From sequence record OR896824.1: a stretch of DNA of 64,000 nt; one strand, given 5' to 3'. Position numbers and translations under genes: made by a program. The first letter of the stretch is position 1. Each line of letters begins with the position of its first letter. This stretch comes from Escherichia phage SmurfNell. The notes beneath the pieces were generated by a model. The model was not told the origin of the DNA. It saw only the letters and a list, made by a program, of their open reading frames with translations, and ran no database searches. Positions 20,048 to 32,215 of the stretch are shown here, piece after piece.

Positions 20048-20069
20048 TAGTTACACGTAATCTTCGAAC

Positions 20070-20288: not shown

Positions 20289-20318
20289 ATATTTATAAAT
20301 TTGAGAGAGGAATCAAAT

Positions 20319-21374: not shown

Positions 21375-21375
21375 T

Positions 21376-22053: not shown

Positions 22054-22100
22054 AGTAGTTATAGCCCTCGCTTAGAGGGCTATTATACAGAAATTTTCAC

Positions 22101-22129
22101 TTGCTTAATATAGAAAATTTCTGTATAAT
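22101..22129 (+). promoter_or_regulatory. early promoter (TTGCTT-17-TATAAT)
   Basis: consensus hexamers plus ATAAATTCGAGAGAGG box. Confidence 0.6.
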
Positions 22130-22159
22130 ATATTTATAAATTCGAGAGAGGAATCAAAC

Positions 22160-22456
22160 ATGAAACGCATTGTACTTGCATTGACTCTAGTATCTACTTC
22201 TGTATTTGCTGCTCCGCAACAGGAACTTTGTCAAGTTCAGGTTTGTAATAAGCTAGAACGATTTACTCTAAACATTTGGTCCCATATTAAAGATAATATG
22301 GGTGAACAGTGTTTTGATATTGTTCTGCCAAAAGAACAGGCTATTCCTGGTGCTGTTCTTAGCTCAGAATCACGTTGGTGGCAGGGTTCTTCTATCAATC
22401 CAACTAAGAAGTCAGTGACACGTATCAAACAAGTATATCAGTGCAAGGTTCAGTAA
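22160..22456 (+). CDS. secreted/periplasmic hypothetical protein
   Basis: Signal peptide MKRIVLALTLVSTSVFA; several Cys. Confidence 0.5.
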   Translation: MKRIVLALTLVSTSVFAAPQQELCQVQVCNKLERFTLNIWSHIKDNMGEQCFDIVLPKEQAIPGAVLSSESRWWQGSSINPTKKSVTRIKQVYQCKVQ

Positions 22457-22464
22457 AATTTCAC

Positions 22465-22493
22465 TTGCTTAATGTCGAAATTTTCTGTATAAT
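22465..22493 (+). promoter_or_regulatory. early promoter driving a tRNA operon
   Basis: TTGCTT-17-TATAAT, 15 nt upstream of tRNA-Ser. Confidence 0.6.
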
Positions 22494-22507
22494 ATATTCA
22501 TAAATTC

Positions 22508-22601
22508 GGAAGATTAACCCTAATGGTAAGGGAGCTGTTTGCTAAACAGCCAGTAGCTGTGGAGACACGGTGTGCCAGTTCGAATCTGGCATCTTCCTCC
22601 A
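22508..22601 (+). tRNA. tRNA-Ser (anticodon GCU), class II
   Basis: Acceptor GGAAGAT/ATCTTCC, anticodon loop TTGCTAA, long variable arm, T-loop TTCGAAT, CCA. Confidence 0.7.
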
Positions 22602-22606
22602 GATTT

Positions 22607-22684
22607 GGTTCTCAAGCTCATTTGGTATGAGCCGTCGCCTCATAAGCGAAAGGTAGGTAGGTTCGAATCCTCCGGGAGCCACCA
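22607..22684 (+). tRNA. tRNA with CAU anticodon (Met, fMet or Ile2)
   Basis: Acceptor GGTTCTC/GGGAGCC, anticodon loop CTCATAA, T-loop TTCGAAT, CCA. Confidence 0.7.
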
Positions 22685-22701
22685 ATTAATTAGGAGACTA
22701 T

Positions 22702-22887
22702 ATGTCACGCTTTCGAGAAATTGCTCAAGAGCTAGAAGAATGTGCCTGCCCAAAATGCTTCGGAGCAGGTGAATGGAACGATGCTGAACCTGGTGATACA
22801 TGGTATAATACATACGTTTGTACACATTGTAATAGTTCTGGTATTAATCCTGAATGCGGTATTTCTCTAGATATTGAGCGAGGCTAA
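22702..22887 (+). CDS. zinc-ribbon small protein
   Basis: CACPKC...CTHCNSSG double Cys pairs. Confidence 0.45.
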   Translation: MSRFREIAQELEECACPKCFGAGEWNDAEPGDTWYNTYVCTHCNSSGINPECGISLDIERG

Positions 22888-23221
22888 GATGGATATCTAC
22901 ACTACACCAGCAGTAAACCTGATTGGCTCTTGCCTTGTGCATTTCCGCTTCTTCCAAACGGATGATAGCAAAGAGGAGTATACCTATCCTCTGATGGATT
23001 TTCAGATTGAGGACTTCTTCCGTGAAGTGCGTAATATCTCTGAGAACTTCTATTATGGCATGGATAAGGAAGACTTTGACATTAAGTTCCCTATAATCTC
23101 TCGTTATTTCCTAGAGCAGTCCGATGCTCGGTTTGAGAAGATTGAACACATGGAAGTAGCCTGGGCTATCCAGTTCGAAATTACTGGCTTTGCTCGATAC
23201 ATTCAAGGTTACGAACTATGA
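22874..23221 (+). CDS. hypothetical protein
   Basis: 115 aa ORF. Confidence 0.45.
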   Translation: MSEAKMDIYTTPAVNLIGSCLVHFRFFQTDDSKEEYTYPLMDFQIEDFFREVRNISENFYYGMDKEDFDIKFPIISRYFLEQSDARFEKIEHMEVAWAIQFEITGFARYIQGYEL

Positions 23222-23313
23222 AATTAAAAGATTATTATATTGGTTGGTTTGTAGGACTAATAGTAGGATTTTCACTGGGCTACAACTTGTATCAACTGAT
23301 AAACTGATTACAT

Positions 23314-23390
23314 GGGGGTGTAATCGAATTGGCATAGGTACTGGACTTAAAATTCAGGTTTTGTGGGTTCGAATCCCACCACCCCTACCA
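23314..23390 (+). tRNA. tRNA with UAA anticodon (Leu-type), class I architecture
   Basis: Acceptor GGGGGTG/CACCCCT (G1-U72), anticodon loop CTTAAAA, 5 nt variable loop, T-loop TTCGAAT, A73, CCA. Confidence 0.55.
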
Positions 23391-23542
23391 AATTAAGGAA
23401 ATAAAAATGAAAGCTATTAAGAAAGCACTACGTAAATTTATGTACTGTCGTTTTCATAGCATCAAGTCTTCGACTAATGGTACGACTTATGATCGCTATG
23501 ATCCTAAGTTTGGCTTACATTCTAAATAACTGGAGAAAACAA

Positions 23543-23749
23543 ATGGCTAATCCTGAAATTACAGCACAACGCTTTATGCTGAAAGGAATTATTGCTGAAG
23601 CAGGCATGACAGAAGAAGTTGCAGATTTTCAAAAGCAATTCCTCAATATTCTCACTCAAGCCAAAGAGCTAGGAGAGAAAGAACATGACGCAGCTGTTAT
23701 GGCAATCACGTTGGTTGGGCTTGATCTGGCAGAAGAATCAGGAGTTTAA
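23543..23749 (+). CDS. hypothetical protein
   Basis: ATG at 23543 with GGAGAAAA RBS, inside track ORF 23477..23749. Confidence 0.45.
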   Translation: MANPEITAQRFMLKGIIAEAGMTEEVADFQKQFLNILTQAKELGEKEHDAAVMAITLVGLDLAEESGV

Positions 23750-23779
23750 CTCCTCCAAGCAGAAATTTTAAAAATGTAC

Positions 23780-23809
23780 TTGCTTTTTACTTAAGATTTC
23801 TGCTATAAT
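23780..23809 (+). promoter_or_regulatory. early promoter (TTGCTT-18-TATAAT)
   Basis: consensus hexamers plus ATAAATTGATGAAGGAG box. Confidence 0.55.
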
Positions 23810-23839
23810 AGTTATATAAATTGATGAAGGAGTTAACGA

Positions 23840-24115
23840 ATGTCAAAACGTGTTACTGCAACTGGTGTTGAAAGTGCTGTTTGTAAATCCTGGGGTGGCT
23901 GGGAAGGTGAGATTGAATGGCTTTATTTCTACGACGTAGAACTTCTGCCGGAAGTCAAAGCTAAATGTGTGGAAGCCGGTATGGCTCCTGATGCAAAGGC
24001 TGATATCGAAATCACCATGCCTAAGCTAGAAGGTCGTGTAATTACGCTCAATGATGATTATGAAGAAGTGTTCGAGCTTCCCTTCAAACTGAGTGTCACT
24101 CCTAGCTTCGAGTAA
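23840..24115 (+). CDS. hypothetical protein
   Basis: 91 aa ORF. Confidence 0.5.
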   Translation: MSKRVTATGVESAVCKSWGGWEGEIEWLYFYDVELLPEVKAKCVEAGMAPDAKADIEITMPKLEGRVITLNDDYEEVFELPFKLSVTPSFE

Positions 24116-24151
24116 CTGATATAGCACTGAGCAAGTTCTTTAAAATTTGAC

Positions 24152-24180
24152 TTGCTCAGTCCTTCAAATCTTGATATAAT
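24152..24180 (+). promoter_or_regulatory. early promoter driving a tRNA operon
   Basis: TTGCTC-17-TATAAT upstream of tRNA-Tyr. Confidence 0.55.
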
Positions 24181-24243
24181 AGTTATCTAATTTGGAAACA
24201 TATTTAAAAGTGTTTAAACTAGTATTTGAATATTTCTAAATAT

Positions 24244-24334
24244 GTTGGATTAGTATCGTAGAGGTAGCGAAGCAGACTGTAAATCTGCCGACTCGGAAGG
24301 GTCTCGGGTGGTTCGACTCCATCATCCAACACCA
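24244..24334 (+). tRNA. tRNA-Tyr (anticodon GUA), class II
   Basis: Acceptor GTTGGAT/ATCCAAC, anticodon loop CTGTAAA, long variable arm, T-loop TTCGACT, CCA. Confidence 0.7.
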
Positions 24335-24341
24335 AATTTAA

Positions 24342-24418
24342 GTCCTGTTAGACAAACTGGTAAAGTCACTACCCTTTCAAGGTAGGATTTGCGGGTTCGA
24401 TCCCCGCACAGGACGCCA
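24342..24418 (+). tRNA. tRNA-Glu (anticodon UUC)
   Basis: Acceptor GTCCTGT/ACAGGAC, anticodon loop CTTTCAA, T-loop TTCGATC, CCA. Confidence 0.75.
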
Positions 24419-24425
24419 ATTTCTG

Positions 24426-24503
24426 CATTCCTAGAGTGTTACTGGACAGCATGTCGGTCTCCAAAACCGTACGGTCTAGGTTCGAGTCCTAGTAGGTTTG
24501 CCA
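24426..24503 (+). tRNA. tRNA-like element, possible tRNA-Trp (anticodon CCA); acceptor stem unresolved
   Basis: T-arm CTAGG-TTCGAGT-CCTAG and encoded CCA at 24501-24503; candidate anticodon loop CTCCAAA; no canonical 5' acceptor strand found by eye. Confidence 0.3.
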
Positions 24504-24509
24504 ATATTT

Positions 24510-24584
24510 GCGACTTTAGCTGAGATGGATTAGCGTCTCCCTGAAAAGGAGAAGAGGTACGATCGTTACGTACAGGTTGCACCA
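24510..24584 (+). tRNA. tRNA-Phe (anticodon GAA) with atypical T-loop
   Basis: Acceptor GCGACTT/AGGTTGC, anticodon loop CTGAAAA, T-arm GTACG-ATCGTTA-CGTAC, CCA. Confidence 0.6.
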
Positions 24585-24595
24585 ATTTGAAGGAG

Positions 24596-24874
24596 ATGCT
24601 GATGCATCCTGAAAACTTCTTTATTTACTGTGCGGATAAGTCATTAAAACGCAGAATTAACAAAGTCTACCATTATCGTGCTAGTCAACAGCCTTATGTT
24701 TATGCTTTTGATGGAGAAACCATTCCACTAAAGCAGTTGGCATGTGATTACATGGTCTTGAAGAACTTTGATGAGACAAAGATCTCAAGCGTTCATAATC
24801 GACAGAATCCATTAACGTGGAAGTATAAGAAGAAAAAGAAAGGCATCAAATTTCTGAAAAATGTAGTTGCTTAA
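24596..24874 (+). CDS. hypothetical protein
   Basis: ATG at 24596 after GAAGGAG RBS, 12 nt after the tRNA-Phe CCA. Confidence 0.5.
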   Translation: MLMHPENFFIYCADKSLKRRINKVYHYRASQQPYVYAFDGETIPLKQLACDYMVLKNFDETKISSVHNRQNPLTWKYKKKKKGIKFLKNVVA

Positions 24875-24895
24875 ATCCTTAAAGTTCTGTATAAT
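24867..24895 (+). promoter_or_regulatory. early promoter (TTGCTT-17-TATAAT)
   Basis: consensus hexamers plus ATAAATTGAACTGGAGAAG box. Confidence 0.55.
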
Positions 24896-24924
24896 TATTA
24901 CATAAATTGAACTGGAGAAGCAAC

Positions 24925-25149
24925 ATGACAGAACAAGAATTAAAAGAACGTAAGCTGGTAATGCTTCGCTTACTAAACATTTTCTCTGGTATGGATGGTG
25001 GTATTGACTTCGTTCAACTACGCACTTTTGTAGAAGAAGCTGAAGGCGAATCTATTACTAAAATCCTTAAACATATGGGTTTATTACTAGACGCTGCTAA
25101 TGTAGCTACTGAATATAAATTAGAAGATCTACCGGAGCGTGTTTCATGA
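24925..25149 (+). CDS. hypothetical protein
   Basis: ATG at 24925 (track start 24907 is TTG). Confidence 0.45.
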   Translation: MTEQELKERKLVMLRLLNIFSGMDGGIDFVQLRTFVEEAEGESITKILKHMGLLLDAANVATEYKLEDLPERVS

Positions 25150-25337
25150 AAATGTTAGTTAAATTTAAGTGTTGTGGTTCTGAACATATTTTCACTCGTT
25201 ATAGAGAGTTTAAGATGTGTGAGTGTGGTAAGTCAGGCTATGATGCTGGAGATGGCTATTATGCTAGATCTATAGGACATTCTAAAGATCTAGAGTTTAC
25301 TAATCTCGAAAAGCAAGATAAATCGACCGTTGGCTGA
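25146..25337 (+). CDS. zinc-ribbon small protein
   Basis: CCGSEH...CECGKSGYD Cys pairs; 3' end overlaps the tRNA-Cys 5' end. Confidence 0.4.
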   Translation: MKMLVKFKCCGSEHIFTRYREFKMCECGKSGYDAGDGYYARSIGHSKDLEFTNLEKQDKSTVG

Positions 25338-25399
25338 ATGGCTTAGGCGGAGGCCTGCAAAACCTCCTTATGTGAGTTCGAATCTCATGCGGTCGTCCA
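25324..25399 (+). tRNA. tRNA-Cys (anticodon GCA)
   Basis: Acceptor CGACCGT/GCGGTCG, anticodon loop CTGCAAA, U73, T-loop TTCGAAT, CCA. Confidence 0.6.
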
Positions 25400-25406
25400 A
25401 ATTTTA

Positions 25407-25489
25407 GGGTCGTTAGCCAAGCGGTTTGGCGGTGGACTGTTAATCCATGTCGAAAGACAACGTAGGTTCGAATCCTACACGGCCCGCCA
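25407..25489 (+). tRNA. class II-type tRNA carrying a GUU (Asn-type) anticodon
   Basis: Acceptor GGGTCGT/ACGGCCC, anticodon arm GTGGA-CTGTTAA-TCCAT, 13 nt variable arm, G73, T-loop TTCGAAT, CCA. Confidence 0.55.
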
Positions 25490-25591
25490 TATTCTGTGTA
25501 GAGTTAAGTAAACCGGTAGCCAACCAGCTATCATTACTGATATTGAATTCAGTCACAGATACCATTTTCATTAATAACTGAGGAAATAGAT

Positions 25592-25777
25592 ATGACAACT
25601 CGTGCAATTGCTCGACTAGAAGCTGATCGTGATAGTCTGATTAATAATATTAAGGTTTGGGATCAAGAAATTGAAAACCAAAAACTGACATTAATTCAAG
25701 ATATGCAGCAACAGAATGCCCGTCGTGAAGCTCTAAAAGAGGTTGAGGAAGCTATCGAAAAACTCAAAACTGAGTAA
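25592..25777 (+). CDS. hypothetical coiled-coil protein
   Basis: 61 aa ORF with GAGGAAA RBS. Confidence 0.45.
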   Translation: MTTRAIARLEADRDSLINNIKVWDQEIENQKLTLIQDMQQQNARREALKEVEEAIEKLKTE

Positions 25778-25786
25778 ATAAATTAT

Positions 25787-25863
25787 GCGATCGGGGCTGG
25801 CTTGGTAATGGTACTCCCCTGTCACGGGAGAAAATGTGGGTTCGAATCCCATCGGTCGCGCCA
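25787..25863 (+). tRNA. tRNA-Asp (anticodon GUC)
   Basis: Acceptor GCGATCG/CGGTCGC, anticodon loop CTGTCAC, T-loop TTCGAAT, CCA. Confidence 0.75.
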
Positions 25864-25939
25864 ATTTTTGCAGGACGCTGGTATAGATAACCACCGCGTG
25901 GGAAGTGTCTATATTTAGAGCACTGCAAAACATAATAAT

Positions 25940-26015
25940 ACATCCATAGCTCAATGGTTAGAGCTACCGCCTCTTAAGCGGAGGGTTCTAGGTTCAAGTC
26001 CTAGTGGGTGTACCA
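25940..26015 (+). tRNA. tRNA-Lys (anticodon CUU)
   Basis: Acceptor ACATCCA/TGGGTGT, D-arm GCTC..GAGC, anticodon loop CTCTTAA, T-loop TTCAAGT, CCA. Confidence 0.6.
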
Positions 26016-26228
26016 AACATCAGAGTAGCGTGATGTACTGCAAAGACCCAAAGTCCGGGGTGGACTTCTTGATTCAAAGGAGCAGGCATTAATTATCATT
26101 CTAGCGTGGTGGAGAGGGGACACCAGCTTGCCGAGGGTAGAAGCTCGTTCGATTCGAGTGAAAGAATGGTTCTCGTAAATCCGCACAAGTGATAGCAGGT
26201 TCAAGTCCTGCCTAGATTGACTTATTAT

Positions 26229-26302
26229 GCGTTCGTAGTTAAAAGGTATAATTTTTGGTTGCCAACCAGAAGTTGAGGGTTCGATTCCCTCCGACCGCAC
26301 CA
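26229..26302 (+). tRNA. tRNA-Gly (anticodon GCC)
   Basis: Acceptor GCGTTCG/CGACCGC (one mismatch), anticodon loop TTGCCAA, T-loop TTCGATT, CCA. Confidence 0.65.
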
Positions 26303-26550
26303 AATTTAGGTTTCTGCTTCCTAGAGAACTGACGCCTAGATAAACAAGGCGATGAGTTTCCGGCCGGTTCTAGTCGCTGAAAATCCTCCCGACCAGGTAG
26401 GTGTAAGTAAACGAAAGTTTACTTATTAAGTAAGTCCGACACATCGGCGGGTGTGTTCTAGTACTTAAAGAAGGTCTCGCAAACTTTCTCGCTAGCATGA
26501 GTTGATAGCTCGGTGACTTACCTAATAAGTAAATTTATTAAAAAATGTAG

Positions 26551-26579
26551 TTGCTATTTAGCTTAATTCTCTGTATAAT
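26551..26579 (+). promoter_or_regulatory. early promoter driving a tRNA operon
   Basis: TTGCTA-17-TATAAT upstream of tRNA-Pro. Confidence 0.55.
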
Positions 26580-26611
26580 ATATTTTATAAAGTGAGTTAA
26601 CAAAGAATATT

Positions 26612-26689
26612 CTCCGTGTAGCTCAGTTTGGCCAGAGCGTTTCGTTTGGGGCGATAGGGTCGGGGGTTCAAATCCTCCCACGGAGACCA
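26612..26689 (+). tRNA. tRNA-Pro (anticodon UGG)
   Basis: Acceptor CTCCGTG/CACGGAG, D-arm GCTC..GAGC, anticodon loop TTTGGGG, T-loop TTCAAAT, CCA. Confidence 0.75.
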
Positions 26690-26695
26690 AACAAT

Positions 26696-26773
26696 TGCGG
26701 GTTAGATCTCTGGTAGAGATCGCTAGTCTCATAAGCTAGAAAGAGGTAGGTTCGATTCCTGCACCCGCTTCCA
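26696..26773 (+). tRNA. tRNA with CAU anticodon (second copy; initiator-like 1-72 mismatch)
   Basis: Acceptor TGCGGGT/ACCCGCT with U1xU72 mismatch, anticodon loop CTCATAA, T-loop TTCGATT, CCA. Confidence 0.65.
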
Positions 26774-26794
26774 ATTTAATAGAAGGATTTCTAA

Positions 26795-26959
26795 ATGAAA
26801 TTGTTTCGTTTAAAAGTAAGTGATATACGTTCTAGTAAAGATCGTAAGAAGTATCCACTAGCTCACTACGGTAAAGATGAAAACGAAGTGATGGCGGAAT
26901 TTGGTATTAATCATCCTTACTTGAAAATATACTCTATCAAAGAAGTATACATGTATTAA
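26795..26959 (+). CDS. small hypothetical protein (54 aa)
   Basis: ORF with AAGGA RBS between two tRNAs, below the track cutoff. Confidence 0.35.
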   Translation: MKLFRLKVSDIRSSKDRKKYPLAHYGKDENEVMAEFGINHPYLKIYSIKEVYMY

Positions 26960-26961
26960 AT

Positions 26962-27040
26962 AGATCGCTAGCTCAATTGGTTTAGCAGCACCCGGCTTTT
27001 AACCGGAAGGTTCTGGGTTCGAGTCCCAGGCGGTCTACCA
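26962..27040 (+). tRNA. tRNA-Lys (anticodon UUU)
   Basis: Acceptor AGATCGC/GCGGTCT, anticodon arm CCGG-CTTTTAA-CCGG, T-loop TTCGAGT, CCA. Confidence 0.75.
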
Positions 27041-27057
27041 ATTTAAAGGAATTTGTT

Positions 27058-27375
27058 ATGAATATTAACAAAGTTCTAGAAACAATATCAGAAATGTCTG
27101 GTAGAGCTGGAAAACGCTTTACTGAACTATGTATTAAAAATCAAAAAATACCAGAACATCAATGTCATTATTGTCGAGACTGTGAACAATACCATGAAAT
27201 GTGTGTGGTTGAAGATTGGATCTGGGATCAGATAAGAAAAGAACAATCCAAAGATATTGTTCTATGTTTTACTTGTATGGAACGACGTTTAGGACGTAAA
27301 ATTACTCTTAAAGATCTTAAACATGTTCCCTGTAACGCTCCTTACTTCATTGGTTTTAGAATGGAGAGATTTTGA
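27058..27375 (+). CDS. Cys-rich zinc-binding protein
   Basis: CHYCRDCEQYHEMC and CFTC motifs. Confidence 0.5.
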   Translation: MNINKVLETISEMSGRAGKRFTELCIKNQKIPEHQCHYCRDCEQYHEMCVVEDWIWDQIRKEQSKDIVLCFTCMERRLGRKITLKDLKHVPCNAPYFIGFRMERF

Positions 27376-27518
27376 TGATAATCTGGTTTTACTTAATGAA
27401 ACAAAAAGTCAAGCAGTACAACGTATTTTCTGCTGATTTTACTATTGGAATGTTCTTAGCAGGATTATGTGAGTTTCTGTTTGAAGCATTCTTAATCGGA
27501 AGTCTTTTGCTCGGTTAG
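27375..27518 (+). CDS. small membrane peptide (47 aa)
   Basis: Hydrophobic ORF overlapping the previous stop, below the track cutoff. Confidence 0.3.
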   Translation: MIIWFYLMKQKVKQYNVFSADFTIGMFLAGLCEFLFEAFLIGSLLLG

Positions 27519-27582
27519 TTTAATGGGAGAACCCCGTCTTTACACGGCGGTTGCGATAGTTCGATTCTATCACCGAGTACCA
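27509..27582 (+). tRNA. tRNA-Val (anticodon UAC)
   Basis: Acceptor GCTCGGT/ACCGAGT, anticodon arm CCGTC-TTTACAC-GGCGG, T-loop TTCGATT, CCA. Confidence 0.65.
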
Positions 27583-27601
27583 ATTAACTCAAAATAAGGA
27601 A

Positions 27602-27961
27602 TTGCAAATGCAATTATCAAGCAAGGTTCAAGGCTACTTCGGTCATGTAACAATGGAGTTCGCTATCTCTAAAGGTTGGGACTTCGAACAAGATTTAGCT
27701 GAGTTCTACAAAGATATTGATCTGAACGTACCGTACATGGGACTCTCTACTGGTCAGGAAATCACAGAAGCCGATGTATTCAAGGCAAGTCAAGGTGAGA
27801 TAACACCTAGTTTTGCCGAGTTCTGGTTAGGAATTACTCTGAAAGATGATGCACCGGATGGTGGTGTGGTTATGCAGAGTATGCACTCTGGAAGCTCTGA
27901 TTACCTTTTCGTTAGCGACGTTAAGGAAATACAAGAAATCTGCAAAAATGTACTTGCTTGA
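27602..27961 (+). CDS. hypothetical protein
   Basis: 119 aa acidic ORF. Confidence 0.5.
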   Translation: MQMQLSSKVQGYFGHVTMEFAISKGWDFEQDLAEFYKDIDLNVPYMGLSTGQEITEADVFKASQGEITPSFAEFWLGITLKDDAPDGGVVMQSMHSGSSDYLFVSDVKEIQEICKNVLA

Positions 27962-27982
27962 TACTTAATTTCTTGTTATAAT
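27954..27982 (+). promoter_or_regulatory. early promoter driving a structured leader and tRNA operon
   Basis: TTGCTT-17-TATAAT; transcript would start with the TTGATGAGGAGAAATCCTCATCAA hairpin. Confidence 0.55.
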
Positions 27983-28018
27983 ATTTATATAAATTGATGA
28001 GGAGAAATCCTCATCAAA

Positions 28019-28244
28019 GTTCACTAAGGTATTAGCTCGACCTAGGACTGGCTGCCAAAAAGCACGGTTGCAATTAGACCCCTAATGGCGGGGGATACTT
28101 TGCAAGAAGTTCTAGATTAGTCCACTAGATTCAGCGGCAACTGAATAGTGTATCGGGTTTGTGAAGAGCGGTTATCCTCTACTGGCTAATGTCTGAGGGT
28201 AATACGCACGCCGAGCTAATAGCCTTAGTAAACTTAAAGATTTT
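28019..28244 (+). other. non-coding leader between promoter and tRNA-Ala (possible small RNA)
   Basis: About 225 nt without an ORF, GC-balanced unlike the AT-rich spacers. Confidence 0.25.
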
Positions 28245-28318
28245 GGGGATATAGTTTAATGGTAGAACATCTGCTTTGCACGCAGAAGACGAGGGTTCAA
28301 CTCCCCCTTTCTCCACCA
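28245..28318 (+). tRNA. tRNA-Ala (anticodon UGC)
   Basis: Acceptor GGGGATA/TTTCTCC with G3-U70, anticodon arm TCTGC-TTTGCAC-GCAGA, T-loop TTCAACT, CCA. Confidence 0.6.
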
Positions 28319-28324
28319 AAATTT

Positions 28325-28400
28325 GGGGTCATAGGTTATTTGGTTAAACTTACTGCCTTGCAAGCAGTGGAACTCAGTTCAATTCTGAGTGACTCCACCA
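28325..28400 (+). tRNA. tRNA-Ala-like second copy (anticodon UGC)
   Basis: Acceptor GGGGTCA/TGACTCC with G3-U70, anticodon arm ACTGC-CTTGCAA-GCAGT, T-loop TTCAATT, CCA. Confidence 0.5.
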
Positions 28401-28413
28401 AATTAGAGGAAGC

Positions 28414-28875
28414 ATGGCTAGAACAGATATATTGGAAAGAAAGGATGAAATTCTTCTCTGGATAGAAGAAAATCAACCCAAAGCTGAAATTGCTAGAAGA
28501 TTACGCTGCAAAGTTGATACACTGAATACTTATCTGAAAAAGATGGGAATACAATATTCAGGTAACTCTGCTAGAAAAGGTTTTATACGTTCTGAGATAC
28601 AGGATGGGTATATTCCGGCAGTGAATTACTTTTACAAAAATAGCCCAATATCTTCTAGTCAGCTTAGAATAAAGATACTACGTGATGGCTTAAAACCTCA
28701 CAAATGTGAAAATTGTAATTTATCTGAATGGATGGGAGTTCCAATCCCCTTAGAGTTAGAGCATAAAGATGGTGATCATTATAATAATGAGTGGGATAAT
28801 TTAGCTTTATTATGTCCCAACTGTCATACACTAACAGATACACATTCAGGTAAGAATAAAGGAACATACGCGTGA
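28414..28875 (+). CDS. HNH endonuclease with N-terminal HTH, inserted in the tRNA island
   Basis: C-terminal HKCENCN...EHKDGDHYNNEWDNLALLCPNCH HNH motif. Confidence 0.75.
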   Translation: MARTDILERKDEILLWIEENQPKAEIARRLRCKVDTLNTYLKKMGIQYSGNSARKGFIRSEIQDGYIPAVNYFYKNSPISSSQLRIKILRDGLKPHKCENCNLSEWMGVPIPLELEHKDGDHYNNEWDNLALLCPNCHTLTDTHSGKNKGTYA

Positions 28876-28946
28876 TTGATGGAATTGGCATACATACCGT
28901 CCTTAGAAGTCGGGTTTTGAGGGTTCGAATCCCTTGTCACGCACCA
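28870..28946 (+). tRNA. tRNA with UAG anticodon (Leu-type), class I architecture
   Basis: Acceptor GCGTGAT/GTCACGC, anticodon loop CTTAGAA, 5 nt variable loop, A73, CCA; scaffold resembles the tRNA at 23314; 5' end overlaps the HNH stop. Confidence 0.5.
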
Positions 28947-28963
28947 ATTTTGTAGTAAACAAC

Positions 28964-29063
28964 GGAAGAGCAAATCGATAGGTGACGAAAACCGCTTGGA
29001 AAGTGGCTGACTTGTGAAAGCAGGCTTGAGAGTTCGAATCTCTCTTCTTCCGCCAAACAATAG
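28964..29063 (+). tRNA. tRNA-like element, about 100 nt, fold unresolved
   Basis: Complementary termini GGAAGAG/TTCTTCC, T-arm GAGAG-TTCGAAT-CTCTC, G73, CCA; too long for a standard tRNA. Confidence 0.3.
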
Positions 29064-29069
29064 AAGATA

Positions 29070-29151
29070 GGACGTAGTGGTACGTAACCGGTCTTGAAAA
29101 CCGGCCCGCTGTAGTGATACGGTGATGGTTCGACTCCATTATCTTCTGCCA
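29070..29151 (+). tRNA. tRNA-Ser (anticodon UGA), class II
   Basis: Acceptor AGAAGAT/ATCTTCT, anticodon arm CCGGT-CTTGAAA-ACCGG, long variable arm, G73, CCA. Confidence 0.7.
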
Positions 29152-29466
29152 AATCTTGAAGTATGCCGGAATCGGTAGACGGGGCTTCCTAAAGGGCGTA
29201 AGAGGAACATCCACTCCTCATAAGATACCCGAAAACGAGGCTGAGATAAATGGTCTATCTCGTGAAGGTTCAAGTCCTTCTGCTTCTTGATATTCAATGG
29301 CTCAAAGAGTAACGGTGCACCTTTCTAGAGAATTTTCTGGGCGAGAATCCAGAAGTAATCAACTAGTTGTTAGTGTGATGAGTTTCGGAGAGCCGCCACA
29401 ATTGAAGTCTTTAGAATGGGTATCGCCCTTTAGCCCCTCCGAAAGGGATAACTAGAGATTTCAATT

Positions 29467-29543
29467 GTGGCTATATCATAATTGGTTAATGATCCTGATT
29501 GTGAATCAGGCCTATGTGGATTCGAATTCCACTAGCCACCCCA
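29467..29543 (+). tRNA. tRNA-His (anticodon GUG)
   Basis: Acceptor GTGGCTA/TAGCCAC, anticodon arm CCTGA-TTGTGAA-TCAGG, C73, CCA. Confidence 0.75.
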
Positions 29544-29549
29544 AATATT

Positions 29550-29624
29550 GCGTCCTTATTTCAATGGAAAGAATGTAAAGCTACGAACTTTACGATCGGG
29601 GTTCGATTCCCTGAGGATGCACCA
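29550..29624 (+). tRNA. tRNA-Arg (anticodon ACG)
   Basis: Acceptor GCGTCCT/AGGATGC, anticodon arm GTAAAG-CTACGAA-CTTTAC, A73, CCA. Confidence 0.75.
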
Positions 29625-29648
29625 ATTAACTTATATAGGAAATAAAAT

Positions 29649-29849
29649 ATGGCTGATTTCTGCAAAGAATGCTCTATCGATATGTGGGGCAAAGATACTG
29701 GTGATCTTTCTGGTCTGATTACAGAAGCCGAAGTTAAAGAAGGCTATGGTGCTGTTGTAATCTGTGAAGGTTGTGGTATTATTCGTGTTGATCATAATGG
29801 TAAACGTCTAGAAGAACCAGATCCAATTGCCACGGTTCCTGTAGAATAA
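29649..29849 (+). CDS. zinc-ribbon small protein
   Basis: CKEC...CEGCG motifs. Confidence 0.45.
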   Translation: MADFCKECSIDMWGKDTGDLSGLITEAEVKEGYGAVVICEGCGIIRVDHNGKRLEEPDPIATVPVE

Positions 29850-29856
29850 AAATTAT

Positions 29857-29932
29857 TGGGATGTAGATCAATTGGCAGATCGTCGGCCTCTGACTCCGAA
29901 GGTTCCACGTTCGATCCGTGGCATCCCAGCCA
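29857..29932 (+). tRNA. tRNA-Gln (anticodon CUG)
   Basis: Acceptor TGGGATG/CATCCCA with U1-A72 and G73, anticodon loop CTCTGAC, CCA. Confidence 0.65.
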
Positions 29933-29938
29933 AATACT

Positions 29939-30014
29939 TGGAGAGTAGTGTAACGGTTAGCACAACGGCCTTTGACTCCGTTAATGGTAGGTTCGATTCC
30001 TCCTTCTCCAGCCA
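29939..30014 (+). tRNA. tRNA-Gln (anticodon UUG)
   Basis: Acceptor TGGAGAG/TTCTCCA with U1-A72 and G73, anticodon loop CTTTGAC, CCA. Confidence 0.65.
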
Positions 30015-30020
30015 ATTTAT

Positions 30021-30095
30021 GCGTGATTAGTTCAGTGGCTAGAATAACTGGCTTCCAACCAGTAGACACGAGTTCGACTCTCGTATCCCGCACCA
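30021..30095 (+). tRNA. tRNA-Gly (anticodon UCC)
   Basis: Acceptor GCGTGAT/ATCCCGC, anticodon arm CTGG-CTTCCAA-CCAG, T-loop TTCGACT, CCA. Confidence 0.7.
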
Positions 30096-30111
30096 AATAT
30101 AAGAAAACGTT

Positions 30112-30333
30112 ATGGACGTTTTTGAGTTTCGTAATAAAAACCCTAGTAGACGAGTTTTAATTATTGGTGAAACATATCGAGCTTATGAGCAAGAAGATGG
30201 TTCGGTTTTATTAAATGATGAAAAGCAAGGCTATAGTTTTCATCCAGAAGAAACATATGAGGAATTTCGTACTAAGTTTCTTTTACCAGACTGGCTAGCA
30301 ATAGCTGAGCAAAGAGAACCCGAAGATGGCTGA
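30112..30333 (+). CDS. hypothetical protein
   Basis: 73 aa ORF. Confidence 0.45.
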   Translation: MDVFEFRNKNPSRRVLIIGETYRAYEQEDGSVLLNDEKQGYSFHPEETYEEFRTKFLLPDWLAIAEQREPEDG

Positions 30334-30488
30334 TAATCTAAAGCTAAAGGTAGATAAACAAATGAAGTGCGTTGAGGTTGAGTTGGGTGAAGAACGTTTA
30401 AAACTCTCCTTCGAATTCTTACAACAGTTGGCTATGACAGTAATGTCTGATAAGTCTCCTGTATTTGAAAAAGAAATTCCGTTGAAAT
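30321..30488 (+). CDS. small hypothetical protein (55 aa)
   Basis: ORF overlapping the previous stop, below the track cutoff. Confidence 0.3.
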
Positions 30489-30500
30489 AACGGGTTTATT

Positions 30501-30575
30501 GCTCCTAAAGCATTGCTGGCGATGCAGTTGCCTTGTAAGCATCTGAACCGGGTTCGATTCCTGGTGGGAGCACCA
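30501..30575 (+). tRNA. tRNA-Thr (anticodon UGU)
   Basis: Acceptor GCTCCTA/TGGGAGC, D-arm GCAT..ATGC, anticodon loop CTTGTAA, T-loop TTCGATT, CCA. Confidence 0.7.
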
Positions 30576-30590
30576 AATTTAAAAATTCAT

Positions 30591-30620
30591 TTGCCTTCTC
30601 TCTTATTTCTTGTTATAATA
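30591..30620 (+). promoter_or_regulatory. early promoter (TTGCCT-18-TATAAT)
   Basis: consensus hexamers plus ATAAATTAATGAGAGGG box. Confidence 0.55.
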
Positions 30621-30649
30621 TTTATATAAATTAATGAGAGGGAAACCAA

Positions 30650-30943
30650 ATGAAACGTTATCTTTCTGTCGTGTTCCAAACTGGTGGTCAACGCTACACT
30701 TATGAATTTCCTGAGTCCTGGAAAATTAAAGAAGGTGATCAAGTTGTTGTATTAACACCTCGTGAAGGCTTCAAAGTAGTAACGGTTAAACAAGTATTTC
30801 CAAAAGATCACGAACCATCTAAGTCTATTCAGTACAAGATGATTCATGGTCTAGTTCGTAAAGTACCACGAACTGAGGTAGAAGTAGATAAGACTGGTGA
30901 AGCTAAATACCAGTATACTTCTTACTTAGATGAAATGATGTAA
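30650..30943 (+). CDS. hypothetical protein
   Basis: 97 aa ORF. Confidence 0.5.
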   Translation: MKRYLSVVFQTGGQRYTYEFPESWKIKEGDQVVVLTPREGFKVVTVKQVFPKDHEPSKSIQYKMIHGLVRKVPRTEVEVDKTGEAKYQYTSYLDEMM

Positions 30944-30944
30944 T

Positions 30945-31020
30945 GCTCTGATAGTTCAACAGGTTAGAACAGGCGACCGATAATCGTCAAATCTTGGTTC
31001 GATCCCAAGTCGGAGTACCA
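30945..31020 (+). tRNA. tRNA-Ile (anticodon GAU)
   Basis: Acceptor GCTCTGA/TCGGAGT, D-arm GTTC..GAAC, anticodon arm GGCGA-CCGATAA-TCGTC, T-loop TTCGATC, CCA. Confidence 0.65.
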
Positions 31021-31026
31021 AATTAT

Positions 31027-31099
31027 AGTTAGTTGGCAGAGCGGTTATGCACCTCCTTCATACGGAGCGACTACAGTGGTTCAAATCCACTACTAACTA
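31027..31099 (+). tRNA. tRNA with CAU anticodon (third copy), no encoded CCA
   Basis: Perfect acceptor AGTTAGT/ACTAACT, anticodon loop TTCATAC, T-arm AGTGG-TTCAAAT-CCACT; followed by ACTA rather than CCA. Confidence 0.45.
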
Positions 31100-31470
31100 C
31101 TAAACAGAGGATCAGGTAATTGTACCAGATCCTGCTGAGAAGAGAGTCCACATTCTATAAATGGCCGGGCGTGACAGCAGGAAGTAGACTGCAACTCCAT
31201 GCTATCCAGGAGTATAAATGTAGAAGCTAAGACTTTAGATAGCCATTGTCTTAGCGTGAGCAATCACGTAGTTGCAACAGACCTGGAAGATCGCAACGTT
31301 AAAATCAAAGTTCCAGTGCTTATTTATCTAATCGAGACCATCAATCTCACCGGAATGCTAGCACCCCAACAGTAGCTAGTGATTAGATAATAAGCAAGCC
31401 TGCCTTCCAGTTTTTATCTTGCTTCTGGGTTAACAAAAAGCTGAGCCAAATTCTAACATCAGGGAGATCT
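31100..31470 (+). other. structured non-coding region downstream of the tRNA island
   Basis: 370 nt without an ORF of 60 aa or more; higher GC than flanks; hairpins such as GGATCAGG...CCAGATCC. Confidence 0.25.
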
Positions 31471-31471
31471 A

Positions 31472-31840
31472 ATGAAAGCATATCAAAGTCTTAAGTCTGG
31501 CGTAATTAACATTGTTCATAACAATCAGATCATTCAACTATACTCTAAAGATGGTGAACTTAAACAGAAAGTTCTAGTTGAAGATCTAGAAGGTATCACA
31601 CCTCACTTTGACCCTGAGGCCTTTCGCATTGTAGATGTGGAAGTGGTTCCCCAAGTCGAGGGTGGTCAGCACCTAAATGTCAATGTGTTAAGCCGTGATC
31701 AGCTTTTGGATGCGCAGAAACATCCTGAAAAATATCCTCAGTTGACCATCCGTGTCTCTGGCTATGCTGTTCGATTTAACGCATTGACGCGTGAACAACA
31801 GAACGACGTTATTAGTCGTACATTTACTCAGGCGATATAA
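31472..31840 (+). CDS. grcA: autonomous glycyl radical cofactor (GrcA/YfiD-like)
   Basis: C-terminal [12 protein letters not shown]...[21 protein letters not shown] is nearly identical in pattern to the E. coli GrcA glycyl-radical domain (from memory). Confidence 0.8.
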
Positions 31841-31921
31841 TGGGGTTTGGATACGATTTCTCCCAGCTACGCAAGGTAGTCGAGCAAACTCCATTTATCT
31901 CCCAAGTTTTAGGAGAAATGT

Positions 31922-32215
31922 GTGGATCGAGCATTAAGACGCCATCACTGGCAACGTGTGAAAAACAACCGAAAGAAGTATTGGACAGTATTCCCTCATG
32001 AAGAAAGTCCTAAGCGGTTAGGCATTATTACTACCACGCCTTGCATCTGTTCTTGTTGGATGTGTGGGAATCCTCGCAAATACTATAAGAATAGTAAAGC
32101 AGGTATGAAAATCTCGGAGATTAAAAAGATGGATGCAATGATCTTAGGTATCGGATACGGCGAAGGTATTTCAAATGATGAATTTGATGGCTTCGTAGGT
32201 TTCGGTGAAGGTTAA
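31922..32215 (+). CDS. hypothetical protein
   Basis: 97 aa ORF, basic N-terminus, Cys cluster CICSCWMC. Confidence 0.4.
   Translation: MDRALRRHHWQRVKNNRKKYWTVFPHEESPKRLGIITTTPCICSCWMCGNPRKYYKNSKAGMKISEIKKMDAMILGIGYGEGISNDEFDGFVGFGEG

What the first reader, a model, noticed from the sequence alone, without database searches (positions are those of the whole stretch)
26016..29466. tRNA-like remnants and an over-long tRNA-like element inside the tRNA island
Canonical T-arms without resolvable acceptor stems occur at 26194-26212 (GCAGG-TTCAAGT-CCTGC), 26143-26158 and 29248-29264, and a 76 nt gap (25864-25939) has complementary ends but no T-loop. The element at 28964-29063 has perfect acceptor pairing, T-arm and CCA but is about 100 nt. 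These may be pseudo-tRNAs, tRNA-derived regulatory RNAs or tRNAs with insertions.
Basis: seen in the sequence. Interest (0 to 1): 0.45.

Follow-up and report, generated by a model that had tools for sequence, protein, structure and literature searches.

The report
Non-decoding tRNA-shaped RNAs in phage tRNA island
The supposed tRNA remnants are two conserved genes for tRNA-shaped RNAs whose anticodon loop is replaced by a structured insert; they match RNA2 and RNA1 of phage T5, whose functions are unknown, and the "over-long" element is an ordinary serine tRNA.

Summary
The window is a T5-like phage (Demerecviridae) with 30 tRNA genes. The "over-long element" is an ordinary type-II tRNA-Ser(GGA), 28964-29055, followed by tRNA-Ser(UGA). 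This was a mis-parse.

The T-arms at 26143-26159 and 26195-26211 both belong to one 122-nt RNA (26098-26219). It is homologous to T5 RNA2. The third T-arm lies at 29264-29280, not 29248-29264, and belongs to a ~130-nt homologue of T5 RNA1 (29158-29286). The T5 RefSeq record annotates both as "tRNA-like stable RNA with unknown functions".

Each has an acceptor stem, D-arm, T-arm and an anticodon-stem analogue. That stem encloses a 48-55 nt structured insert instead of a 7-nt anticodon loop.

Covariation supports every helix: RNA2, 23 of 30 pairs with compensatory changes across 16 sequences; RNA1, 12 of 34 across 10. They are therefore not decaying pseudogenes.

RNA2 relatives also occur in T4-like Acinetobacter phages. 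The insert is the most conserved part, and five homologues encode a CCA end. Rfam has no family for either RNA.

The 76-nt gap is a lineage-restricted hairpin and is not tRNA-like.

Most likely these RNAs are excised and stabilised like tRNAs, while the insert binds an unknown partner.

The parts
26098..26219 (+). RNA2-type tRNA-shaped RNA, a homologue of T5 RNA2 (T5s06). Layout: acceptor 26098-26104 / 26212-26218; D-arm 26107-26125; anticodon-stem analogue 26126-26130 / 26186-26190; insert 26131-26185; T-arm 26195-26211; discriminator G 26219. No CCA is encoded (GACT).
   Evidence: 89.6% identical to T5 RNA2. Covariance model R1 scores it 142.9 bits, against at most 46 bits for ordinary tRNAs. 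Covariation over 16 sequences: 91.6% of cells paired and 23 of 30 pairs with changes on both sides.
26131..26185 (+). Insert ('payload') of the RNA2-type RNA.
   Evidence: 23 of 61 insert columns are invariant across 16 sequences from two phage families. None of the acceptor or anticodon-stem columns is invariant. The hairpin shows compensatory changes in 4 of 5 pairs. The pair 26138.26179 switches from U.A to C.G in 6 sequences.
26195..26211 (+). True T-arm of the RNA2-type RNA (GCAGG TTCAAGT CCTGC).
   Evidence: Read from the sequence. 100% of cells are paired and 3 of 5 pairs show compensatory changes.
29158..29286 (+). RNA1-type tRNA-Leu-like RNA, a homologue of T5 RNA1 (T5s03; the extent equivalent to the T5 annotation is 29155-29298). 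Layout: acceptor 29158-63 / 29281-86; D-arm 29166-29182; anticodon-stem analogue 29184-88 / 29237-41; insert 29189-29236; long variable arm 29243-29261; T-arm 29264-29280. No CCA is encoded.
   Evidence: 82% identical to T5 RNA1. Model R2 scores it 173.9 bits, and the next-best hits are tRNA-Leu genes at 46 bits or less. Covariation: 97.3% paired and 12 of 34 pairs with changes on both sides. ARAGORN in intron mode calls it a tRNA with a 41-nt intron.
29189..29236 (+). Insert of the RNA1-type RNA. It has a middle stem GGG/CCC and an inner hairpin GAGGA-ACATCCAC-TCCTC whose loop is nearly invariant.
   Evidence: The middle stem shows compensatory changes in 2 of 4 pairs and the inner hairpin in 3 of 5. 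23 of 48 columns are invariant.
28964..29055 (+). Ordinary type-II tRNA-Ser(GGA).
   Evidence: Called by ARAGORN. The minimum-energy fold is a cloverleaf with a long variable arm and a GCCA end. The T5 record annotates tRNAS2(GGA) at the same place.
29062..29151 (+). Ordinary type-II tRNA-Ser(UGA).
   Evidence: ARAGORN; T5 tRNAS1(UGA).
25866..25930 (+). Long imperfect hairpin filling the 76-nt gap between tRNA-Asp and tRNA-Lys(CUU). It is not tRNA-like.
   Evidence: dG -23.3 kcal/mol, z = -4.0. It is present in only 29 phage records, all at least 97% identical, so covariation cannot be tested.
26016..26097 (+). Spacer between tRNA-Lys(CUU) and the RNA2-type RNA. Its nature is unknown.
   Evidence: 95-96% identical over 80 nt to Klebsiella Sugarlandvirus phages. 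It is absent from phage smaug. The fold is not better than shuffled sequence (z = -0.7).
25492..25564 (+). A third tRNA-like RNA, a homologue of T5 RNA3 ('putative tRNA-like RNA').
   Evidence: 94.5% identical to T5 RNA3. The T-like stem changes from G.C to G.U to A.U among four phages. ARAGORN and Rfam do not call it.

Best explanation
The 'remnants' are two intact genes for non-decoding, tRNA-shaped RNAs. They belong to the families annotated in phage T5 as RNA2 (window 26098-26219) and RNA1 (window 29158-29286).

Shown here:
- Each keeps the tRNA scaffold: acceptor stem, D-arm, T-arm and an anticodon-stem analogue. RNA1 also has a tRNA-Leu-like D-arm and a long variable arm.
- In each, the 7-nt anticodon loop is replaced by a conserved 48-55 nt structured domain.

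Inferred:
- They are transcribed with the neighbouring tRNAs from the island's sigma-70 promoters.
- RNase P and the 3' tRNA-trimming enzymes cut them out, because their acceptor/T-arm half looks like a tRNA.
- The tRNA fold makes them metabolically stable.
- RNA2-type molecules end in a CCA tail, encoded in some phages and probably added in others.
- They cannot decode. The scaffold works as a natural 'tRNA scaffold' that displays the insert, and the insert is the functional part.

My best guess is that the insert, together with the tRNA elbow, binds and titrates or redirects a conserved host factor that normally handles tRNA. Candidates are a tRNA-directed nuclease or defence effector, a modification or processing enzyme, or the ribosome. 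The partner is unknown.
For: Homology:
- blastn against T5 RNA2 and RNA1 gives 89.6% and 82% identity over full length.
- The T5 RefSeq record annotates them as 'tRNA-like stable RNA with unknown functions'.
- BF23 and a second T5 record also annotate rna2.

Structure:
- RNA2: 16 sequences, 91.6% of cells paired, 23 of 30 pairs compensatory, 0 of 500 shuffles as good, slid controls 28-45%.
- RNA1: 10 sequences, 97.3% paired, 12 of 34 pairs compensatory, slid controls 43-52%.

tRNA scaffold:
- Ordinary tRNAs align end to end to model R1 with the insert deleted (30-46 bits).
- The next-best hits of R2 are tRNA-Leu genes.
- The RNA1 D-arm matches that of T5 tRNA-Leu(UAG).
- ARAGORN in intron mode calls RNA1 a tRNA with an intron.

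The insert is the constrained part:
- 23 of 61 RNA2 insert columns are invariant between T5-like and T4-like Acinetobacter phages, against 0 of 24 acceptor and anticodon-stem columns.

tRNA-like ends:
- N-CCA is encoded right after the acceptor stem in KpGranit, AAS21, KEY, INF11 and probably PSTCR5.
- Spacing to the next tRNA is 9 nt, as between tRNAs.

Conservation:
- About 500 phage records hold each element.

Other:
- No Pfam match for the overlapping ORFs.
- No Rfam family.
Against: No expression, processing or binding data for this phage could be examined. 'Stable RNA' rests on the T5 record's wording.

The window's RNA2 copy has a U.U mismatch in the acceptor stem and no encoded CCA.

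The RNA1 acceptor helix may continue through two U.U mismatches into conserved flanks (TCTTG / CTTGA). RNA1 also lacks a discriminator and CCA, so it may not have a free tRNA-like 3' end.

Single-sequence folding energies are not better than shuffled sequence (z = 0.05 and -1.0).

No binding partner, host homologue or conserved neighbouring gene was found. The decoy or titration role is therefore a guess.
Confidence: 0.6

Rival explanations
1. They are decaying tRNA pseudogenes: remnants of duplicated tRNA genes disrupted by insertions, with no function of their own.
For: ARAGORN at default settings and the Rfam tRNA model do not call them. The RNA1 scaffold clearly derives from a tRNA-Leu. 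The window's RNA2 copy has an acceptor mismatch and no CCA.
Against: About 500 genomes retain each element. Compensatory changes occur in all helices, including those inside the inserts. Insert sequences are nearly invariant between Demerecviridae and T4-like Acinetobacter phages. The T5 record annotates them as stable RNAs.
Confidence: 0.03
2. They are intron-containing tRNA genes. The insert is spliced out to give a decoding tRNA, for example a tRNA with loop CUAAAAC from RNA1.
For: ARAGORN in intron mode parses RNA1 as tRNA(aaa) with a 41-nt intron, leaving a well-formed 7-nt loop. At a relaxed threshold it parses RNA2 as tRNA-Pro(agg).
Against: The putative spliced loop and anticodon are not conserved. 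T5 has C-G...AAAA and DU_PP_V has ...ACGG in the aligned positions. The inserts are far too short for bacterial group I tRNA introns, and Rfam finds no intron family. The T5 record gives the mature stable RNAs as 125 and 144 nt, which includes the insert. No enzyme for protein-mediated tRNA splicing is known in these hosts (general knowledge).
Confidence: 0.04
3. They act only in cis. On this reading they are tRNA-like 'punctuation' that directs RNase P or RNase E cutting of the polycistronic transcripts and protects neighbouring RNAs, and they have no role as free molecules.
For: They lie within tRNA operons at tRNA-like spacing. In T5, RNA1 abuts RNA I, whose 5' end is annotated at the base after RNA1. 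A small hairpin and conserved flanks surround RNA1.
Against: Punctuation needs only the acceptor/T-arm half. It does not explain near-invariant insert sequences across phage families. RNA2 and RNA1 also occupy different neighbourhoods in different phages: after tRNA-Leu in KpGranit, before tRNA-Thr in AAS21, after tRNA-Gly in Acinetobacter phages, and away from any ARAGORN-called tRNA in the metagenomic contig L006.
Confidence: 0.15
4. RNA2-type molecules are aminoacylated tRNA mimics that act on or near the ribosome, or donate an amino acid outside decoding, in the manner of tmRNA or viral tRNA-like structures.
For: They have a full 7-bp acceptor stem plus a discriminator, and five homologues encode CCA. 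The D- and T-arms that form the elbow are retained.
Against: The discriminator (G, A or U) and the acceptor pairs vary freely, with no conserved identity set such as G3.U70. ARAGORN finds no tmRNA. BLAST against all complete E. coli genomes, which include ssrA, finds nothing. Most copies, including this window's, lack an encoded CCA. The RF-1-domain ORF next to the element in phage ZZ1 is not conserved in Acj9 or Acj133.
Confidence: 0.1

Closest known systems
Phage T5 RNA2 (T5s06) and RNA1 (T5s03), 'tRNA-like stable RNA with unknown functions' in NC_005859; also annotated in BF23
   Same: These are direct homologues: 89.6% and 82% identity, the same order within the tRNA island, the same strand and the same secondary structure.
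   Different: The window copies differ by compensatory substitutions. The neighbours also differ: the window has tRNA-Lys(CUU) and tRNA-Gly(GCC) around RNA2, where T5 has an ORF and RNA IV. Function is unknown in both phages.
Phage T4 species 1 and species 2 RNAs (rnaC, rnaD)
   Same: They are small stable RNAs of unknown function encoded inside a phage tRNA cluster. rnaC ends with a canonical T-arm followed by an acceptor-like strand.
   Different: No sequence homology was detected; model R1 gives only 18 bits on the rnaC 3' end. The interior architecture is different. The T4-like Acinetobacter phages, in contrast, carry true RNA2-type homologues.
Engineered 'tRNA scaffold' RNAs (foreign RNA inserted in place of the anticodon loop to gain processing and stability in E. 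coli; recalled from memory)
   Same: The topology is the same: an intact acceptor, D-arm and T-arm, with a structured insert carried on the anticodon stem.
   Different: These are natural and evolutionarily conserved. Whether the scaffold confers stability and processing here was not tested.
tmRNA
   Same: It is a tRNA-like acceptor/T-arm module fused to a large non-tRNA domain, and it is non-decoding.
   Different: There is no tag reading frame, no G3.U70, no ARAGORN tmRNA call and no sequence match. A real D-arm and an anticodon-stem analogue are present, and the RNA is only about 120 nt.
Bacterial and phage Y-RNA-like RNAs (YrlA) and viral 3' tRNA-like structures
   Same: They are non-coding RNAs that mimic the tRNA elbow and are handled by tRNA enzymes.
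   Different: The topology is different. In YrlA the RNA ends form the stem on the anticodon side, whereas here the ends form the acceptor stem. There was no Rfam hit to any such family.

Membership tests
T5 RNA2 family (tRNA-like stable RNA) | Sequence homology to T5 RNA2 over its full length | tested here: met
   89.6% identity over 125 nt. Model R1 gives 142.9 bits, against at most 46 bits for tRNAs.
T5 RNA2 family (tRNA-like stable RNA) | Shared secondary structure: acceptor, D-arm, anticodon-stem analogue enclosing an insert with a T-loop hairpin, and T-arm | tested here: met
   All six helices are supported, with 23 of 30 pairs compensatory.
T5 RNA2 / RNA1 families | Accumulates as a discrete stable RNA in infected cells | not testable with these tools
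   Only the wording of the T5 record is available. No expression data for this phage could be examined.
T5 RNA1 family (tRNA-like stable RNA) | Sequence homology and shared structure: tRNA-Leu-like D-arm, long variable arm, insert in the anticodon loop | tested here: met
   82% identity over 144 nt. Model R2 gives 173.9 bits. 97.3% of cells are paired and 12 of 34 pairs are compensatory.
Canonical decoding tRNA | A 7-nt anticodon loop on a 5-bp stem, at tRNA distance from the acceptor end | tested here: not met
   The anticodon-stem analogue encloses 55 nt (RNA2) or 48 nt (RNA1). Neither is called by ARAGORN at default settings or reaches the Rfam tRNA threshold: 12.5 bits against a cut-off of 29.
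Canonical decoding tRNA | Acceptor stem, D-arm and T-arm with a T-loop | tested here: met
   All are present and covary.
Canonical decoding tRNA (element 28964-29055) | Cloverleaf with anticodon, here type II with a long variable arm and a CCA end | tested here: met
   ARAGORN calls tRNA-Ser(GGA). The fold is a cloverleaf. T5 has the homologue tRNAS2(GGA).
tRNA pseudogene / remnant | No selection on structure: substitutions break pairs and the sequence is not retained across lineages | tested here: not met
   92-97% of cells are paired with many compensatory changes. The elements are retained in about 500 genomes.
Intron-containing tRNA | Removing the insert leaves a conserved canonical anticodon loop; the insert has features of a known intron class | tested here: not met
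   The ARAGORN parse exists for the window copy only in form. The loop is not conserved in T5 or DU_PP_V. There is no intron family in Rfam.
tmRNA | tRNA-Ala-like end with G3.U70, a tag reading frame, and pseudoknots | tested here: not met
   ARAGORN finds no tmRNA. The acceptor pairs vary. No E. coli match, ssrA included.

The most novel reading that the evidence does not exclude
RNA2-type RNAs, and by analogy RNA1-type RNAs, are a class of natural 'tRNA-scaffolded' effector RNAs shared by unrelated virulent phages: T5-like siphoviruses and T4-like Acinetobacter myoviruses. On this reading the tRNA body hijacks the host tRNA-maturation pathway for excision, CCA addition and stability. The nearly invariant insert (a T-loop hairpin plus GAAUGGUUCNCGUAAAUCC) is an aptamer or decoy that neutralises a tRNA-targeting host defence or captures another conserved tRNA-binding factor.
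Probability: 0.25. Interest if true: 0.75.

Novelty: new member of a known kind. Interest (0 to 1): 0.4.

Why it matters
T5-type tRNA islands are now viewed as counter-measures against defences that cut tRNAs; the papers seen here cover PARIS and Septu. The islands also carry several conserved RNAs that are not tRNAs, which most genome records leave blank or annotate as 'hypothetical protein'.

Three results make these RNAs concrete candidates for experiment. Two of them are tRNA bodies that display a conserved insert. One family crosses phage families. Neither is in Rfam. They could be a missing RNA component of phage takeover or anti-defence. The result also gives annotators models that would prevent spurious ORF calls. 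If they turn out to be only processing by-products, the matter is ordinary.

Tried and rejected
- **Rfam.** I scanned 18000-32000 at E <= 1, and the two gaps alone at E <= 10. Only tRNAs and noise came back.
- **tmRNA resemblance.** From memory I noticed a likeness between the RNA2 insert (UGCCGAGGG...CUCGUAAAUCCGCA) and pseudoknot 1 of E. coli tmRNA. BLAST of RNA2 against all complete E. coli genomes at E <= 1 found nothing, and ARAGORN finds no tmRNA. I dropped the idea.
- **Bacterial homologues.** A motif scan of 185,579 genomes gave 99 stretches, roughly as many as chance would give for a pattern this short (my rough estimate). None of the 80 loci returned passes model R1.
- **IMG/VR motif scans.** These gave few contigs: three T5-like (L009, L010, L012), four T4-like (L006, L008, L123, L124) and two chance hits in coding sequence, L007 and L011.
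- **Pseudoknot inside RNA2.** A CGAG/CUCG pairing within the insert is not supported by covariation, judged by eye on alignment A4.
- **Link to ribosome rescue.** The RF-1-domain ORF next to the element in phage ZZ1 is not conserved in Acj9 or Acj133.
- **Coding rivals.** Window ORFs 26001-26303(-), 29156-29290(+) and 29297-29455(+) have no Pfam match.
- **Single-sequence folding.** It does not distinguish these RNAs from shuffled sequence.
- **Literature.** Six full-text searches found no paper in the held library on T5 tRNA-like or stable RNAs. Only reference-list entries to Hunt et al. 1980 and Kryukov et al. 1983 turned up. The T4 genome review is not held. One search was wasted on ambiguous terms.
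- **Tool limitation.** Several loci were never copied to the Python sandbox, so T5 sequences were pasted in by hand.

Full report
**What the window is.** ARAGORN finds 30 tRNA genes between 18790 and 31100, all on the + strand. A megablast of 25700-29600 matches 590 phage records, and the best are Epseptimavirus/Tequintavirus phages of Salmonella and E. coli. The window is therefore the tRNA island of a T5-like phage (Demerecviridae).

**Checking the observation.**
- The third hairpin (GAAGG TTCAAGT CCTTC) is at 29264-29280, 16 nt downstream of the stated position.
- The T-loop word GTTCRANTC occurs 31 times in the window, against 4.0 +/- 2.0 in shuffles. Apart from the ARAGORN tRNAs, the island holds only four copies, at 18237, 26147, 26199 and 29268. 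These motifs are not chance.
- The 'over-long' element is a mis-parse. ARAGORN calls tRNA-Ser(GGA) at 28964-29055 (92 nt) and tRNA-Ser(UGA) at 29062-29151. The first folds as a type-II cloverleaf with a long variable arm and a GCCA end. T5 carries the same annotated pair.
- The 76-nt gap has complementary ends and folds as one long hairpin (dG -23.3 kcal/mol, z = -4.0). It occurs in only 29 phage records, all at least 97% identical. It is lineage-restricted, cannot be tested by covariation, and has nothing tRNA-like about it.

**Identity of the two real elements.** A BLAST of 29152-29466 hit T5 under features named RNA1 and RNAI. The T5 RefSeq record NC_005859 annotates seven misc_RNAs inside its tRNA region:

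| T5 RNA | Annotation in the record |
|---|---|
| RNA3 | putative tRNA-like RNA |
| RNA2 | tRNA-like stable RNA with unknown functions |
| RNA1 | tRNA-like stable RNA with unknown functions |
| RNA IV, RNA2H, RNA I, RNA III | stable RNAs with unknown functions |

blastn of these features against the window places them as follows:

| T5 RNA | Window position | Identity |
|---|---|---|
| RNA2 | 26097-26221 | 89.6% |
| RNA1 | 29155-29298 | 82% |
| RNA3 | 25492-25564 | 94.5% |
| RNA2H | 28029-28164 | 79% |
| RNA IV | 26435-26486 (part) | 81% |
| RNA I | 29377-29399 (last 23 nt only) | 91% |
| RNA III | none | - |

The third belongs to the RNA1 homologue. Rfam has no family for either.

**Anatomy of the RNA2-type RNA (26098-26219).**

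| Feature | Sequence | Coordinates |
|---|---|---|
| Acceptor stem | ATTCTAG / CTAGATT (one U.U mismatch here; fully paired, with one G.U, in T5) | 26098-26104 / 26212-26218 |
| D-arm | TGGTG-GAGAGGGGA-CACCA | 26107-26125 |
| Anticodon-stem analogue | GCTTG / CAAGT | 26126-26130 / 26186-26190 |
| Insert (55 nt) | see below | 26131-26185 |
| Variable region | GATA | 26191-26194 |
| T-arm | GCAGG TTCAAGT CCTGC | 26195-26211 |
| Discriminator | G, then ACT (no CCA) | 26219 |

The insert consists of CCGA, a 4-bp stem GGGT/ATCC, a hairpin with a perfect T-loop (GCTCG TTCGATT CGAGT) and the stretch GAAAGAATGGTTCTCGTAA.

**Testing the RNA2 structure.**
- I built covariance model R1 from 13 sequences with this structure.
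- R1 finds exactly one copy at 92-150 bits in the window and in 18 other phage loci. Ordinary tRNAs score 46 bits or less, and they align end to end with the insert deleted. That result is itself a formal statement of the scaffold-plus-insert design.
- On the 16-sequence model alignment, 91.6% of cells are paired and 23 of 30 pairs have changes on both sides. No shuffle out of 500 reaches this, and slid registers give 28-45%.
- Pairs with compensatory changes, by helix: acceptor 7 of 7, D-stem 3 of 4, anticodon-stem analogue 5 of 5, insert hairpin 4 of 5, T-stem 3 of 5.
- The small inner stem is mostly invariant, but one pair switches from U.A to C.G in six sequences.
- Caveat: the alignment was fitted to the model, which favours the structure. 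The MAFFT-only alignment already showed the same helices.

**Distribution of the RNA2 type.**
- Demerecviridae: T5 and Epseptimavirus phages; Pantoea AAS21 and Erwinia KEY; Pectobacterium My1; Klebsiella KpGranit (found only by the model); Providencia PSTCR5.
- Unexpectedly, T4-like Acinetobacter phages: 133, Acj9, ZZ1 and AB1I1M-1.
- A 164-kb metagenomic contig, L006.
- Sources.
- BLAST counts 503 records with region B.
- The insert is the most conserved part: 23 of 61 columns are invariant, against 0 of 24 acceptor and anticodon-stem columns.
- Five homologues encode N-CCA immediately after the acceptor stem: KpGranit TCCCGTA-T-CCA, AAS21 and KEY ATTGTCT-A-CCA, INF11 CTAGAAC-G-CCA, and PSTCR5 probably GTGACT-A-CCA. 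The others have GACT, GACA or AACA.
- The discriminator and the acceptor pairs are not conserved. That argues against a fixed aminoacylation identity.

**Anatomy of the RNA1-type RNA (29158-29286).**

| Feature | Sequence | Coordinates |
|---|---|---|
| Acceptor stem | GAAGTA / TGCTTC | 29158-63 / 29281-86 |
| Positions 8-9 | T, G | 29164-65 |
| D-arm (type II, tRNA-Leu-like) | CCG-GAATCGGTAGA-CGG | 29166-29182 |
| Anticodon-stem analogue | GCTTC / GAGGC | 29184-88 / 29237-41 |
| Insert (48 nt) | middle stem plus hairpin GAGGA-ACATCCAC-TCCTC | 29189-29236 |
| Long variable arm | GAGATA-AATGGTC-TATCTC | 29243-29261 |
| T-arm | GAAGG TTCAAGT CCTTC | 29264-29280 |

**Testing the RNA1 structure.**
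- Model R2 was built from the window, T5 and DU_PP_V.
- It finds one copy at 119-181 bits in 10 loci. The next-best hits are tRNA-Leu genes at 46 bits or less.
- The 5' half aligns best with T5 tRNA-Leu(UAG).
- Covariation: 97.3% of cells paired, 12 of 34 pairs with changes on both sides, 0 of 500 shuffles as good on four of the five measures (the count of further pair types was reached by 109 of 500), slid controls 43-52%.
- The D-arm, variable arm and T-arm are 94-98% conserved per column, while the acceptor and anticodon stems covary.
- No CCA or obvious discriminator is encoded.
- The conserved flanks TCTTG and CTTGA could extend the acceptor helix through two U.U mismatches. I could not test this, because those positions do not vary.
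- ARAGORN in intron mode calls the window copy 'tRNA-Phe(aaa) with a 41-nt intron'. At a relaxed threshold it forces RNA2 into 'tRNA-Pro(agg)'. The spliced loop is not conserved in T5 or DU_PP_V. I read this as a trace of origin, an insertion into the anticodon loop of a tRNA-Leu, and not as evidence of splicing.

**How it most likely works.**
- Shown: both are conserved, structurally constrained tRNA bodies carrying a conserved non-anticodon domain. They lie in tRNA transcription units on the tRNA strand, at tRNA-like spacing. Consensus promoters sit at 26551-26579 and 27958-27985.
- Inferred: RNase P and the 3' trimming enzymes excise them as they excise tRNAs, and the tRNA fold stabilises them. 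RNA2 carries or receives CCA. They cannot decode. The insert is the functional payload, most likely a binding surface for a conserved tRNA-handling factor.
- I found no clue to the partner. There is no E. coli homologue, no bacterial copy and no conserved neighbouring gene.
- Papers seen here establish that T5 tRNAs counter tRNA-cleaving defences: PMC11464382 (title and abstract as listed) and PMC13096335 (passage read). That makes a decoy role plausible but untested.

**Comparison and novelty.** The window elements are members of families already annotated in T5 and BF23. Their existence is therefore known and their function is not. Beyond the database record, this analysis adds four things:
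- an explicit covariation-supported structure, a tRNA scaffold with an insert in the anticodon loop;
- the link of two 'separate' T-arms to one RNA;
- the extension of the RNA2 family to T4-like Acinetobacter phages;
- the observation that some members encode CCA.

Many genome records leave these loci blank or annotate them as 'hypothetical protein'. I rate the finding as a new member of a known kind, of moderate interest.

Noticed in passing
It is a homologue of T5 RNA3 (94.5%), 73 nt long, and lies directly after tRNA-Asn. Features: acceptor TTCTGTG/CACAGAT, a 6-bp stem with the 6-nt loop CAACCA, a T-like stem with an 8-nt loop, and an encoded A-CCA end. The T-like stem goes from G.C to G.U to A.U among four phages. 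ARAGORN and Rfam do not call it.
   Followed up: partly
window 18186-18257 (+): A degenerate tRNA-like element with a perfect T-loop (GTTCGAATC at 18237). Rfam tRNA gives 29.3 bits, right at the threshold, and ARAGORN does not call it. The equivalent in phage smaug is annotated tRNA-OTHER.
   Followed up: partly
window ~28026-28226 (+): A ~200-nt structured RNA homologous to T5 RNA2H. It lies just downstream of a consensus promoter (27958-27985) and upstream of tRNA-Ala. It is closed by a 14-bp stem, AAGGTATTAGCTCG / CGAGCTAATAGCCTT. It has no Rfam family.
   Followed up: partly
window 29397-29412 and 29455-29471 (+): GCCACAATTGAAGTCT pairs with AGATTTCAATTGTGGC, and the second arm overlaps the first bases of tRNA-His (29467-). 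In T5 the same inverted repeat brackets RNA III between RNA I and tRNA-His. This may be a double-strand processing site, for example for RNase III.
   Followed up: no
window 29299-29405 (+): The stretch after RNA1 differs from T5 RNA I except for its last 23 nt. It is 83-87% identical to Klebsiella Sugarlandvirus-type phages and to the 288-kb Klebsiella phage vB_Kpn_AM_K4. In phage KpGranit the homologous stretch directly follows tRNA-Ser.
   Followed up: partly
window 26416-26540 (+) and 26303-26415 (+): An RNA IV-like segment precedes the promoter at 26551. A further ~110 nt of non-coding sequence after tRNA-Gly(GCC) has no T5 counterpart.
   Followed up: no
window 28870-28946 and 23314-23390 (+): Both tRNA-Leu genes of this phage are 77 nt with a short variable loop. 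T5 tRNA-Leu(UAG) is 85 nt with the usual long arm. The long-armed tRNA-Leu-like body survives here only in RNA1.
   Followed up: no
L004 ~5225-5300 (My1) and L017 ~7911-7999 (KpGranit): Another unusual tRNA-like RNA shared by these two phages. It has a canonical acceptor, a D-arm and an ACCA end, but carries GCAGGTTGAATCCCTGC followed by GGAGTAACACGTAGTCTCC. It is absent from the window.
   Followed up: partly
L006 8967-9098 and ~9107-9230 (164-kb metagenomic contig): Two more long tRNA-like RNAs with large inserts. The first ends in ACCA and contains CTCGTAAATCG and CCGTAAAAC, which echo the CNCGTAAATCC motif of the RNA2 insert. ARAGORN finds no canonical tRNA in this 10-kb locus.
   Followed up: no
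L020 528-758 (Acinetobacter phage ZZ1): A 76-aa ORF with an RF-1 (peptide release factor, GGQ-type) domain lies immediately downstream of the RNA2-type element. It is not conserved in Acj9 or Acj133.
   Followed up: yes
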